The notes beneath the pieces were generated by a model. That model ran no database searches and was not told where the DNA came from. It saw only the letters and a list, made by a program, of their open reading frames with translations. A DNA stretch of 48,091 nucleotides from contig JABCTZ010000040.1 in assembly GCA_018238155.1 (NCBI GenBank), forward strand, positions 1-48,091, written 5' to 3'. How positions within the stretch are numbered: the first letter of the stretch is position 1; every line of letters starts with the position of its first letter. The DNA comes from Candidatus Heimdallarchaeota archaeon (GTDB lineage Archaea; Asgardarchaeota; Heimdallarchaeia; JABLTI01). Shown here in pieces: positions 23,876 through 24,601 of this stretch. A program made the position numbers and the translations under genes.

Positions 23876-24601
23876 TTAAAAATAATCACCCAACGTACTT
23901 TGTTTTGGTCTTAGTAGTTCCTTCAAAAGATATTCTTCAAGAGCTCTTTTAGAAACAAGAATATCTTCAAGCTTTTGTGCAGGGTGATTTTGCTTACTAA
24001 TATCCTCTCCGATTATCCTTAGTAAATCTCCCTTGAAACCAATTGTTCCATTGATTTTAAACCCATATTTGCACAATTTTGTCACCATTTCATTATTCGC
24101 ATCCAAAGTTATTGCTTTATCATTCTCTTTTTGACCAAAAGCAACTGTTAAAGAATTGATTGCTTTCTCCCAATCATAAATTGCTTTCAAATAGTCTTCA
24201 CCCAATGCTAAATAAATCAAATTAAACTTCTTTGATATTAAACCAATAAAATCCTTCATAATTTCCAATTTGTTAGATCGATCCATTATCTCTTGATTCT
24301 TCATTTTACTAAAACTGCATTCATAAGCTGGTATCATCTCTTCTGATTCAAGTAAACCAAATCCTGCTGAGATGATGTAGAAATCTACTTCTGCAAATCT
24401 TCTCAGAATTTCTATTCCCTTTATTATACTTTTATGTTGTGAACCTTGATACATATCTATTACTTTACAAATTTCTTTAGAACTTTTTTTCATTATCTCT
24501 TCTCTATCTTGCTTTATAGTGATATCATCGCACTTTAGTTGATTAGATGATGAAAATGCCTTTGCTTTTGTACATGAACTGATAACTAATATTCGAATCA
24601 T
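23876..24601 (-). CDS. YaaA/DUF328-fold, DpdC-like protein with C-terminal PIP box
   Basis: ILVISSCTKAK, DMYQG.QH, IISAGFGLL...IPAYECSF, LALGEDYL; ends QSTLGDYF. Confidence 0.75.
   Translation of the reverse strand: MIRILVISSCTKAKAFSSSNQLKCDDITIKQDREEIMKKSSKEICKVIDMYQGSQHKSIIKGIEILRRFAEVDFYIISAGFGLLESEEMIPAYECSFSKMKNQEIMDRSNKLEIMKDFIGLISKKFNLIYLALGEDYLKAIYDWEKAINSLTVAFGQKENDKAITLDANNEMVTKLCKYGFKINGTIGFKGDLLRIIGEDISKQNHPAQKLEDILVSKRALEEYLLKELLRPKQSTLGDYF

What the first reader, a model, noticed from the sequence alone, without database searches (positions are those of the whole stretch)
23876..23902. PCNA-interaction (PIP) boxes on the DNA-modification proteins suggest clamp-coupled modification
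Seen: the DpdC-like protein ends in QSTLGDYF, an exact match to the PIP consensus Q-x-x-[LIM]-x-x-[FY]-[FY] at the usual C-terminal position. The first MTase has QKSMDKF (19240-19260) in a linker between motifs I and IV. The TGT ends in a weaker STKINDY (19659-19688). Inference: the enzymes ride the PCNA clamp to mark nascent DNA behind the fork. This independently supports DNA rather than tRNA as the substrate and offers a self/non-self mechanism reminiscent of eukaryotic DNMT1-PCNA coupling.
Basis: partly seen in the sequence, partly recalled or inferred. Interest (0 to 1): 0.75.

Follow-up and report, generated by a model that had tools for sequence, protein, structure and literature searches.

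The report
PCNA-docking tail on archaeal DpdC-like enzyme
In a Heimdallarchaeota (Asgard) genome, an enzyme of a probable 7-deazaguanine DNA-marking and defence island ends in a textbook PCNA-binding peptide, so this DNA-modifying enzyme probably rides the replication sliding clamp; this is prediction only, with no binding experiment.

Summary
The 241-aa DUF6884/DpdC-like protein (23876-24601, minus strand) ends exactly in QSTLGDYF.

Evidence that this tail is more than chance:
- The genome is archaeal: PCNA is present and no beta clamp was found.
- Nine of 3881 ORFs carry a strict PIP box in their last 12 residues, against 1.25 expected. Six belong to PolD, FEN1, RFC-L, RNase HII, a Y-family polymerase and an EndoIII-type protein.
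- The tail is unstructured in the AlphaFold2 model.
- It docks into the canonical PCNA groove in a controlled complex model (ipSAE 0.77, best control 0.00).
- PIP or PIP-like tails recur in several separate lineages of the family, including a haloarchaeal clade. They are missing from the large Thorarchaeota clade and from this genus's second paralogue.

The other two motifs are weaker:
- The MTase motif QKSMDKF alone is near chance level (0.17 per protein). However, it sits in a flexible loop insertion that keeps [QN]xx[LIMV]xx[FYW][hydrophobic/T] in 28 of 120 homologues and in 0 of 53 bacterial ones. This stays open.
- The TGT tail is not a PIP box.

An earlier scan note on Thorarchaeota DNA described the related dpdC-like/TGT cassette. 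It did not describe the PIP tail.

Verdict: PCNA tethering of the DpdC-like enzyme is likely (about 0.65). Replication-coupled self-marking is inference.

The parts
23876..23902 (-). C-terminal PIP box QSTLGDYF plus stop codon of the DpdC-like protein (residues 234-241)
   Evidence: Read directly from the sequence. pLDDT is below 50 for residues 234-241 in the AF2 model. Residues 232-241 form the whole predicted interface with PCNA. Against the 75%-identical homologue, the L and F codons differ only synonymously while the non-key positions change T->K and D->N.
23876..24601 (-). DUF6884 / DpdC-like protein, 241 aa, YaaA-like DNA-binding fold
   Evidence: Pfam PF21818 scores 33.6 bits against a cut-off of 30, with a weak PF03883 YaaA hit. 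PADLOC DpdC models match residues 1-107 only. Motifs CTKAK (residue 10) and ISAGFG (residue 77) are present. AF2 mean pLDDT is 90.7. The only significant PDB fold match is E. coli YaaA 5caj (E 1.3e-4, TM 0.45).
21639..23777 (-). AIPR protein with N-terminal Mrr-type nuclease domain, 712 aa (candidate restriction or abortive-infection part)
   Evidence: Pfam AIPR 4.6e-31 and Mrr_cat 2.3e-4. PADLOC AbiU 5.7e-17. The same gene lies in the same place in the P0001 locus and the P0024 locus.
20903..21646 (-). 247-aa protein of no known family, conserved beside the AIPR gene
   Evidence: No Pfam, NCBIfam or PADLOC hit. A 239-242 aa gene lies in the same position in L090 and L095.
19659..20804 (-). 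Extra TGT paralogue (DpdA-like / ArcTGT-like, no PUA domain), 381 aa; its tail STKINDYR is not a PIP box
   Evidence: Pfam TGT 2e-20. NCBIfam arcTGT 3.3e-25 and DpdA 3.3e-11, both far below their cut-offs. PADLOC DpdA 2.3e-13. The genome also has a 534-aa TGT open frame, the strongest TGT match (presumed canonical ArcTGT), and other TGT paralogues. None of 120 homologues has a Q-core tail.
18718..19596 (-). N6/N4 DNA methyltransferase 1, 292 aa, with the internal motif QKSMDKF at 19240-19260
   Evidence: Pfam N6_N4_Mtase 1.8e-28. The motif starts at the end of helix 101-112 and runs into a loop with pLDDT below 50 at residues 116-121. [QN]xx[LIMV]xx[FYW][FYWLIVMT] is kept in this loop in 28 of 120 homologues, including QRNIDEFF in a Promethearchaeota protein. 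It is absent from 53 bacterial homologues.
17917..18675 (-). N6/N4 DNA methyltransferase 2, 252 aa
   Evidence: Pfam N6_N4_Mtase 8e-32. PADLOC type II MTase 2.8e-42. No PIP-like tail.
17252..17854 (-). 200-aa protein of no known family (last co-oriented small gene; possible nuclease, not shown)
   Evidence: No hit in Pfam, NCBIfam or PADLOC.

Best explanation
The 241-aa DUF6884/DpdC-like protein is a DNA-binding, probably base-flipping enzyme. It belongs to an archaeal 7-deazaguanine (Dpd-like) DNA-modification and defence island. Its flexible C-terminal octapeptide QSTLGDYF is a functional PIP box that inserts into the hydrophobic pocket under the interdomain connecting loop of the Heimdallarchaeal PCNA.

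Tethered to the clamp, the enzyme is concentrated on PCNA-loaded DNA, that is, newly replicated or repaired DNA. There it acts on bases that the neighbouring TGT paralogue has exchanged.

Shown here:
- the motif, its position and its disorder;
- its statistical enrichment in this genome;
- its recurrence in related lineages;
- the family and fold of the enzyme;
- the linkage of the family to TGT, QueC and ArcS-type genes.

Modelled only: docking to PCNA.

Inferred: that binding happens in the cell, that the substrate is 7-deazaguanine in DNA, and that the coupling serves replication-linked self-marking.
For: 1. Archaeal host. PCNA is present. No beta clamp was found in a genome that is 90.7% complete. 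The same genus is titled Heimdallarchaeota in public records (contigs matched to G003 and G018).

2. Genome-wide enrichment. There are 9 strict C-terminal PIP boxes against 1.25 expected. The other eight are PolD DP2, FEN1, RFC large subunit, RNase HII, a Y-family polymerase, an EndoIII-FeS protein, a beta-CASP nuclease (QSTLESFF) and PurC, which is the one obvious chance hit. By PSSM the tail ranks 12th of 3881, with 0.40 expected by chance. Other top tails belong to PolB, a second beta-CASP nuclease and an SMC-like ATPase.

3. Structure. The protein is globular over residues 1-229 (mean pLDDT 90.7), and residues 234-241 have pLDDT below 50.

4. Complex model of PCNA (22-row alignment) with residues 196-241. 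ipSAE was 0.77, 0.77 and 0.76 in three runs, and the best of 3 controls was 0.00. In the tool's calibration this mark was reached by 58 of 80 solved complexes and 2 of 110 mismatched pairs. Contact agreement between runs was at least 95%, and partner pLDDT was at least 72. The interface is residues 232-241 against PCNA residues 40, 43-47, 123-127, 224-225 and 241-248, which is the classical PIP site. Many PIP-PCNA structures are solved, so this pass shows likeness to a PIP box, not binding.

5. Recurrence in the family.
- P0001 (75% identity, same operon): QSKLGNYF.
- P0003 (46%, next to a TGT): QTKMTHFL.
- G012, same genus (51%): QQSFANFL.
- P0032 (next to an archaeal histone gene): QKSLPDFF.
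- P0023: NRTILDFY. P0024: NRNMLDYL. P0033: TQNIGDYY.
- A clade of four with QAELEEFEY, QPTIEEY, QKRFGEFE and QSDLTDYS. One of these lies next to a TGT gene and a haloarchaeal-type wHTH gene.

The core Q..[LIMFV]..[FYW] occurs in the last 13 residues of 1.1% of this genome's ORFs, against about 10 of 105 family members. The binomial probability is 3e-7, or 8e-5 if counted as 5 lineages of 40.

6. Enzyme class. DUF6884 is the DpdC domain (PMC11888242). It is a YaaA-like DNA-binding fold with CxxxK and LSAxxG motifs (PMC11701544), and both motifs are present here.
Against: - No binding experiment exists.
- The docking result may reflect the model's memory of solved PIP-PCNA complexes.
- The motif is not universal in the family. 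It is absent from the Thorarchaeota-type clade (59 rows), although those genes also sit beside TGT and DUF5591 genes. It is absent from the paralogue that 9 of 10 genomes of this genus carry. It is absent from close relatives P0002 (54% identity), P0004, P0005 and P0006.
- One chance strict hit per genome is expected, and PurC shows that such hits occur.
- Several related tails are degenerate: N or T in place of Q, F at position 4, or only one aromatic residue.
- The tree is a quick one, with many unsupported forks.
- Similarity to bacterial DpdC covers only the N-terminal 107 residues, so the chemistry is uncertain.
Confidence: 0.65

Rival explanations
1. The PIP box is real, but the enzyme is a PCNA-tethered DNA-surveillance or repair enzyme (like B. 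subtilis YfjM, a DUF6884 protein that binds damaged DNA). It would not be a 7-deazaguanine modification enzyme, and its place in the island would be incidental or regulatory.
For: DUF6884 member YfjM is reported among interactors of abasic and RNA-base lesions and is modelled as a base flipper (PMC11701544). Most archaeal proteins with C-terminal PIP boxes are repair or replication enzymes (PMC4929162). Some PIP-bearing relatives have no TGT gene nearby: G012, P0032 and P0024. A GC-rich relative sits beside an AGOG-like glycosylase gene. Similarity to DpdC covers the N-terminal part only.
Against: The gene is repeatedly linked to 7-deazaguanine genes: TGT in this window, L090, L092, L097 and L201; QueC and DUF5591 in L096. 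The six-gene order DUF6884 - AIPR - unknown - TGT - MTase - MTase is conserved in L090.
Confidence: 0.15
2. The tail is a chance or neutral sequence that happens to fit the PIP consensus and does not bind PCNA in the cell.
For: About 1.25 strict C-terminal matches are expected per genome by chance, and PurC carries one. Many family members, including close ones, lack the motif. The docking model would probably accept any good PIP-like peptide.
Against: The motif recurs at the extreme C-terminus in at least five separate lineages, against a 1.1% background. Between the query and P0001, the key positions are kept through synonymous codon changes while non-key positions vary. The tail fits the local flavour Q-x-[ST]-L-x-[DE]-[FY]-F. 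It is disordered and exposed.
Confidence: 0.12
3. The tail is a docking peptide for a partner other than PCNA, for example the TGT paralogue, the AIPR-Mrr protein or another island protein. Its likeness to a PIP box would be convergent.
For: Short hydrophobic/aromatic C-terminal peptides serve many complexes. The bacterial DpdA/DpdB/DpdC proteins work together (PMC10164549, abstract). No DpdB is present here, so a different assembly is expected.
Against: PIP-like tails occur on family members in quite different gene neighbourhoods, so no other partner gene is shared. PCNA is the one constant. The controls with unrelated partners scored 0.00. No test of other partners was run.
Confidence: 0.06

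Closest known systems
Archaeal PCNA clients with a C-terminal PIP box (FEN1, RNase HII, RFC large subunit, PolD, NucS/EndoMS, NreA; review PMC4929162)
   Same: A canonical Q-x-x-h-x-x-a-a peptide at the extreme C-terminus on a flexible tail behind a globular DNA enzyme. The predicted docking site on PCNA is the same. The tail has the same flavour as this genome's own FEN1, RFC-L and PolD tails.
   Different: The enzyme is a DUF6884/DpdC-like protein of a modification/defence island. That class is not named as a PCNA client in the review passages read, and it did not turn up in the full-text searches run here. Binding is not shown.
Bacterial Dpd system (DpdA/DpdB/DpdC plus DpdD-K; Salmonella Montevideo; PMC10164549, PMC11888242)
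   Same: A TGT-family paralogue together with a DUF6884 protein. QueC, the preQ0-synthesis gene searched for, is present in the genome. The island context is defence-like.
   Different: No DpdB (ParB/DndB-like ATPase) and no DpdD-K genes were detected. The DpdC match covers only residues 1-107. The TGT is closer to archaeal ArcTGT models than to DpdA and is below the cut-offs of both. AIPR-Mrr and two N6/N4 MTases take the place of the restriction operon. The host is an archaeon, and the DpdC-like protein has a PIP tail.
Eukaryotic DNMT1-PCNA coupling (maintenance methyltransferase recruited to forks through a PIP motif; established knowledge; review PMC6316769 listed, not read here)
   Same: The concept only: a DNA-marking enzyme tethered to the sliding clamp through a PIP motif, so that marks can be laid on newly made DNA.
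   Different: The enzyme family, chemistry and motif position (internal N-terminal region in DNMT1) all differ. No homology is claimed and no timing data exist here.
E. coli YaaA (PDB 5caj) and B. subtilis YfjM (DUF328/DUF6884 'cantaloupe' fold DNA-binding proteins; PMC11701544)
   Same: Fold (Foldseek E 1.3e-4), the CxxxK and LSAxxG motifs, and a presumed DNA-binding cleft.
   Different: Those proteins are bacterial, and the sources read here report no clamp-binding tail for them. TM is only 0.45 and identity 12%. The protein here has an extra C-terminal helical part (residues 189-228) and the PIP tail.
Thorarchaeota dpdC-like / dpdA / arcS-core cassette
   Same: The same DUF6884 family beside TGT and DUF5591 genes in Asgard archaea. 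The arrangement was confirmed in L201.
   Different: The Thorarchaeota-type proteins end in ...LGGL-like tails without any PIP box. No AIPR or MTase genes were seen in the locus checked.

Membership tests
PIP-box PCNA-interacting peptide | Q at position 1, aliphatic residue (L/I/M) at position 4, aromatic residues at positions 7 and 8 | tested here: met
   QSTLGDYF, residues 234-241.
PIP-box PCNA-interacting peptide | Lies in an exposed, flexible region, typically the extreme C-terminus in archaea | tested here: met
   These are the last 8 residues. pLDDT is below 50 for residues 234-241, after the last helix at 218-228.
PIP-box PCNA-interacting peptide | Host has PCNA as its sliding clamp | tested here: met
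   PCNA_N scores 66.1 bits at G000:C11. No DNA_pol3_beta match was found in a genome that is 90.7% complete.
PIP-box PCNA-interacting peptide | Docks under the interdomain connecting loop and into the hydrophobic pocket of PCNA | tested here: met
   Model only. ipSAE 0.77 against a best control of 0.00. The interface is residues 232-241 with PCNA 40, 43-47, 123-127, 224-225 and 241-248. The pass may rest on likeness to solved complexes.
PIP-box PCNA-interacting peptide | Conserved among orthologues | tested here: inconclusive
   Kept or nearly kept in P0001, P0003, G012/P0021, P0032, P0023, P0024, P0033 and a clade of four (one member beside a haloarchaeal-type wHTH gene). Absent in P0002, P0004-P0006, the Thorarchaeota clade and the second paralogue of this genus.
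PIP-box PCNA-interacting peptide | Physical, motif-dependent binding to PCNA | not testable with these tools
   Needs pull-down, ITC or SPR with motif mutants.
DUF6884 / DpdC | Match to Pfam PF21818 above the gathering score | tested here: met
   33.6 bits against a cut-off of 30, residues 38-145.
DUF6884 / DpdC | Conserved CxxxK and LSAxxG motifs (PMC11701544) | tested here: met
   CTKAK at residue 10 and ISAGFG at residue 77. S78, A79, G80 and G82 are invariant in A1.
DUF6884 / DpdC | YaaA-like fold | tested here: met
   5caj is the only significant PDB match: E 1.3e-4, probability 1.00, TM 0.45.
DUF6884 / DpdC | Full-length likeness to bacterial DpdC (about 300-320 aa) | tested here: not met
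   PADLOC DpdC models align only to residues 1-107 of this protein (model positions 1-113 of about 310-319). No NCBIfam hit.
DUF6884 / DpdC | Converts preQ0 in DNA to the amide (dADG) | not testable with these tools
   Needs an enzyme assay or LC-MS of DNA nucleosides.
Bacterial Dpd modification-restriction system | DpdA (DNA-acting TGT paralogue) | tested here: inconclusive
   NCBIfam DpdA 42.7 bits (cut-off 200) and arcTGT 88.4 bits (cut-off 350). PADLOC DpdA 2.3e-13. It is an extra paralogue beside a 534-aa TGT open frame that gives the genome's strongest TGT match.
Bacterial Dpd modification-restriction system | DpdB (ParB/DndB-like ATPase) next to DpdA | tested here: not met
   No operon protein matches DpdB or DndB in Pfam, NCBIfam or PADLOC.
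Bacterial Dpd modification-restriction system | DpdD-K restriction operon | tested here: not met
   No PADLOC Dpd hits other than DpdA and DpdC. AIPR-Mrr and MTases are found instead.

The most novel reading that the evidence does not exclude
In Heimdallarchaeota, the closest archaeal relatives of eukaryotes, a chromosomal DNA-marking and defence island is physically wired to the replisome. The DpdC-like enzyme (C-terminal PIP box) and MTase 1 (PIP-like loop insertion conserved in Asgard homologues) would both bind PCNA. Self-marks (7-deazaguanine and methyl groups) would then be laid on nascent DNA as it leaves the fork. This would be an archaeal counterpart of DNMT1-PCNA maintenance marking, and a way to tell replicated self DNA from invading DNA.
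Probability: 0.25. Interest if true: 0.8.

Novelty: new variant of a known kind. Interest (0 to 1): 0.6.

Why it matters
Sliding-clamp tethering is well known for replication and repair enzymes, and for the eukaryotic maintenance methyltransferase DNMT1. The searches run here found no report of it for a prokaryotic DNA-modification or defence enzyme, or for any 7-deazaguanine (Dpd-type) system.

If the tail binds PCNA, three things follow:
- It supports DNA, not tRNA, as the working site of the archaeal DUF6884-TGT modules.
- It offers a simple answer to how a Dpd-like system without DpdB finds its substrate.
- It gives a testable model for replication-coupled self-marking in an Asgard archaeon.

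The test is cheap: peptide or protein against recombinant PCNA, with four point mutants.

Tried and rejected
TGT tail as a PIP box: rejected.
- It has no Q and only one aromatic residue.
- None of 120 homologues has a Q-core tail.
- Only the nearest relatives keep x-x-K-[IL]-[DN]-x-[YF].
- TGTs beside other DUF6884 genes (L092, L097) and the DUF5591 protein of L096 have unrelated tails.

MTase motif as pure chance: first assumed (0.17 per protein), then withdrawn.
- The motif lies in a loop insertion that keeps a PIP-like pattern in 28 of 120 homologues and in 0 of 53 bacterial ones.
- The Q and the aliphatic residue are conserved even in homologues without the aromatic part (QKKLL). The pattern could therefore be a helix extension.

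L069 tail (RSQSTLGC-stop) as a frameshifted PIP box: the other reading frames give no convincing continuation. Dropped.

Contamination of the contig: the window's GC content (0.314) fits the genome's (0.328; contig range 0.284-0.356).

Literature: searches for PIP box + archaea + deazaguanine, PCNA-interacting + archaeal + restriction-modification and Asgard + 7-deazaguanine found no report of this coupling.

GC-rich basal clade: I could not name its domain. The neighbours of P0093 include IS21 and DnaA-type genes, so 'absent in bacterial DUF6884 proteins' is not properly tested.
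Full report
**What is there**

On the minus strand, the ORF 23876-24601 encodes 241 residues ending ...LLRPKQSTLGDYF-stop. The 27 bases named in the finding are the last eight codons plus TAA.

The gene heads a co-oriented row:
- DUF6884/DpdC-like, 241 aa;
- AIPR with an N-terminal Mrr-type nuclease domain, 712 aa;
- a 247-aa protein of unknown family;
- a TGT paralogue, 381 aa;
- two N6/N4 DNA methyltransferases, 292 and 252 aa;
- a 200-aa protein of unknown family;
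- a TPR-CHAT protein.

QKSMDKF is residues 113-119 of MTase 1. STKINDYR is the end of the TGT.

**The host**

The assembly is 4.08 Mb and 90.7% complete. It has a PCNA gene, and no DNA polymerase III beta clamp was found. Contigs of genomes of the same genus bear the public title Candidatus Heimdallarchaeota (matched to G003:C57 and G018:C55). A PIP box is therefore the right kind of clamp motif for this organism. The contig's GC content (0.314) fits the genome's (0.328).

**Is the tail more than chance?**

I called 3881 ORFs of at least 100 aa in the whole genome.

Strict pattern. Q..[LIM]..[FY][FY] occurs in the last 12 residues of 9 ORFs, against 1.25 expected from its internal frequency. 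Only 2 ORFs end exactly with it. The other eight are:
- PolD DP2;
- FEN1;
- RFC large subunit;
- RNase HII;
- a Y-family polymerase;
- a 474-aa protein with an EndoIII Fe-S motif;
- a beta-CASP nuclease ending in QSTLESFF;
- PurC, an obvious chance hit.

Position matrix. A PSSM built from the five textbook clients ranks QSTLGDYF 12th of 3881 tails. At that score 0.40 tails are expected by chance. Other high tails belong to PolB, a second beta-CASP nuclease and an SMC-like ATPase.

In this genome, then, a strict C-terminal PIP box is a good predictor of a DNA-transaction protein. One false positive per genome is still expected.

**Structure and docking**

With a 20-row alignment, AlphaFold2 gives a confident globular model (mean pLDDT 90.7, pTM 0.89). 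The last helix spans residues 218-228, and residues 234-241 have pLDDT below 50. This is a free tail.

The only significant PDB fold match is E. coli YaaA (5caj; E 1.3e-4, TM 0.45). That agrees with Pfam's account of DUF6884 as a YaaA-like DNA-binding fold with CxxxK and LSAxxG motifs (PMC11701544). Both motifs are present here.

I modelled the cognate PCNA (22-row alignment, A2) with residues 196-241 of the protein:
- ipSAE was 0.77, 0.77 and 0.76 in three runs. The best of three controls was 0.00.
- In the tool's calibration this mark was reached by 58 of 80 solved complexes and 2 of 110 mismatched pairs. My own alignment was used, so these counts hold only roughly.
- The runs agree in at least 95% of contacts, and partner pLDDT was at least 72.
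- The whole interface is residues 232-241 against PCNA 40, 43-47, 123-127, 224-225 and 241-248. That is the classical groove under the interdomain connecting loop plus the C-terminal tail of PCNA.

Many PIP-PCNA complexes are solved. This pass therefore shows that the tail looks like a PIP box to the model, not that it binds.

**Conservation**

The family has 1214 hits at E <= 0.001 in the 50%-identity representative library. It occurs in 102 of 400 genomes of the phylum searched.

Tails in the family:

| Protein | Relation or context | Tail |
|---|---|---|
| P0001 | 75% identity, same six-gene order | QSKLGNYF |
| P0003 | 46% identity, next to a TGT | QTKMTHFLL |
| G012 / P0021 | same genus, 51% identity | QQSFANFLP |
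| P0032 | next to an archaeal histone gene | QKSLPDFFEN |
| P0023 | - | NRTILDFYK |
| P0024 | - | NRNMLDYL |
| P0033 | - | TQNIGDYY |
| P0118 | clade of four; next to a TGT and a haloarchaeal-type wHTH gene | QAELEEFEY |
| P0132 | same clade | QPTIEEY |
| P0139 | same clade | QKRFGEFE |
| P0151 | same clade | QSDLTDYS |

On a quick maximum-likelihood tree, these tails sit in several small lineages around the query and in outgroups. Three groups have none: the big Thorarchaeota-type clade (59 rows), the clade of this genus's second paralogue (8 rows; G000:C7:33918-34571) and a GC-rich basal clade (21 rows).

The minimal core Q..[LIMFV]..[FYW] occurs in the last 13 residues of 1.1% of this genome's ORFs, against about 10 of 105 family rows. 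The binomial probability is 3e-7. If counted as 5 lineages of 40 it is 8e-5. Relatedness makes both figures rough.

Between the query and P0001, the L and F codons differ only synonymously (TTG/CTA, TTT/TTC). The non-key residues change (T->K, D->N).

The motif is thus recurrent and looks selected, but it is a lineage-specific feature. It is not a hallmark of all archaeal members.

**What the enzyme belongs to**

DUF6884 is the domain of bacterial DpdC (PMC11888242). PADLOC DpdC models match residues 1-107 only.

The family is repeatedly linked to 7-deazaguanine genes:
- TGT in this window, L090, L092, L097 and L201;
- QueC and a DUF5591 (ArcS-type) gene in L096;
- DUF5591 in L201.

The genome also has a 534-aa TGT open frame that gives its strongest TGT match (presumed canonical ArcTGT), other TGT paralogues and QueC genes. 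The window's TGT is therefore an extra copy.

No DpdB and no DpdD-K genes were found in the operon. AIPR-Mrr with its 240-aa companion and an MTase recur with the family in L090 and L095. In L095 a 1653-aa DEAD/MZB helicase is also present.

The best description is an archaeal Dpd-like modification module embedded in a restriction/abortive-infection island. It is not a member of the bacterial Dpd system.

**The other two motifs**

MTase 1.
- By itself QKSMDKF is unremarkable: 0.17 such matches are expected per protein.
- In the model it starts at the end of helix 101-112 and runs into a loop with pLDDT below 50 at residues 116-121.
- Of the 120 best homologues, 28 keep [QN]xx[LIMV]xx[FYW][FYWLIVMT] in this loop. 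Examples are QKTLDRWV, QGNLDKWV, QKKIDKWI and, in a Promethearchaeota protein, the strict QRNIDEFF.
- In named genomes, 3 of 22 archaeal homologues have it, all Asgard. None of 53 bacterial homologues (Ignavibacteria, Melioribacteraceae and other Bacteroidota-labelled genomes) has it; their loop is short and unrelated.
- Against a PIP reading: the Q and the aliphatic residue are conserved even where the aromatic part is missing (RLxQKKLL). The i, i+3, i+4 pattern is also what an amphipathic helix extension would give.
- I rate PCNA binding by this loop at roughly one in three.

TGT tail.
- It lacks the Q and the second aromatic residue.
- Only the nearest relatives keep x-x-K-[IL]-[DN]-x-[YF].
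- None of 120 homologues has a Q-core tail.
- TGTs beside other DUF6884 genes end differently.

I do not count the TGT tail as a PIP box.

**Mechanism proposed**

- Shown: a DNA-binding-fold enzyme of a deazaguanine-linked family carries an exposed, consensus, recurrent PIP peptide in an organism whose clamp is PCNA.
- Modelled: the peptide fills the PIP groove.
- Inferred: PCNA left on newly replicated or repaired DNA recruits or retains the enzyme. The enzyme flips and converts the base that the TGT paralogue inserted. Perhaps this compensates for the missing DpdB. The resulting mark protects self DNA from the island's nuclease.

That the whole set of modification enzymes rides the clamp, and that this gives DNMT1-like maintenance marking, is possible but untested.

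**Prior knowledge**

Full-text searches found no paper linking PIP boxes or PCNA to 7-deazaguanine systems, or to archaeal restriction-modification enzymes. The passages read from the review of archaeal PCNA partners cover replication and repair proteins, NucS, Nre and TIP. They mention a methyltransferase only as a protein that co-purified with NucS (PMC4929162).

I confirmed that arrangement in L201 and found that its DUF6884 protein lacks the PIP tail.

**Verdict**

- This is a new variant of a known kind: a PIP-bearing PCNA client of an unexpected enzyme class.
- It is moderately interesting and cheap to test.

Noticed in passing
G000:C3:40456-41490 (L002); G000:C15:60611-61801 (L107); G000:C3:110818-112740 (L105); G000:C41:332166-333074 (L106); G000:C11:91830-93209 (L103); G000:C39:68349-68657 (L104): Further ORFs of this genome have PIP-like C-terminal tails. 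They are two beta-CASP/metallo-beta-lactamase nucleases (QSTLESFF at the very end; EITLDDFF), an SMC/Rad50-like ATPase (QTSLFDFI), a DUF2797 protein (QKSLFDFV), and 460-aa and 103-aa proteins with no Pfam hit (QRILDDFS, DQTLDQFF). These are candidate new PCNA clients in Heimdallarchaeota.
   Followed up: partly
window 19240-19260 and homologues P0270, P0241, P0234, P0237; L112, L145, L111: MTase 1 belongs to a subgroup whose loop between motif I and SPPY carries an insertion with a PIP-like pattern (for example QRNIDEFF, QKTIDKWF, QKTLDRWV). In named genomes it was seen only in Promethearchaeota and Heimdall homologues, and in none of 53 Ignavibacteria/Bacteroidota homologues.
   Followed up: partly
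L097 (Logan SRR28149505 contig), 2-5179: A haloarchaeal-looking cluster: a 714-aa unknown protein, DUF6884 (tail QAELEEFEY), an HxlR/HVO-type wHTH protein, a TGT (345 aa) and a 299-aa unknown protein. Its clade of four DUF6884 proteins all end in acidic Q-x-x-[LIF]-x-x-[FY] tails.
   Followed up: partly
L095 (JGI 3300033153 contig), 1067-10975: A variant island: AIPR-Mrr, a 242-aa unknown protein, an MTase, a 150-aa weak GIY-YIG-like protein, DUF6884 (tail NRNMLDYL) and a 1653-aa DEAD/Helicase_C/MZB protein. No TGT gene lies within the 11 kb.
   Followed up: no
G000:C7:33918-34571 (L099:6874-7572): A second DUF6884 paralogue without a PIP tail (...NSLREHS). Its type is seen in most genomes of the genus that were searched. 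Here it sits between a SLOG (LDcluster4) gene, an HD-domain gene and a V4R gene, not beside a TGT.
   Followed up: partly
G000:C31:5622-8641: A second cluster of a QueC gene and two TGT-like open frames, one with an internal TAA. It lies about 8 kb upstream of the 474-aa EndoIII-FeS protein that carries the PIP tail QVKITDFFN (C31:16047-17471).
   Followed up: no
L009 (G000:C41:3269-8179): The PolD large subunit gene (1636 aa) contains an intein with a LAGLIDADG domain and still ends in a PIP box (QRSLTEFFGQP).
   Followed up: no
L069 (G324:C123), end of the DUF6884 gene: A Thorarchaeota-clade family member ends in ...RSQSTLGC-stop. This is the first five residues of the window's PIP box without the aromatic pair. 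Its sister L081 ends in ...ARQTYLS. These may be remnants of a lost tail or may be coincidence.
   Followed up: partly
G018:C95:4482-5204 and G006:C176:2319-3059: Two genomes of the same genus carry a second, divergent PCNA paralogue (54% and 44% identity to the main one). The window's genome showed only one.
   Followed up: no
L092 and L100 (P0003 locus and G012:C98): The PIP-like DUF6884 gene of P0003 and G012 sits in a shared neighbourhood: GH20 hexosaminidase, a PALP enzyme, DUF6884 and an NMT/GNAT acetyltransferase. The P0003 locus also has a 289-aa TGT and a 313-aa unknown gene between DUF6884 and the GNAT gene. G012 lacks both, and its PALP gene is split into two ORFs.
   Followed up: partly
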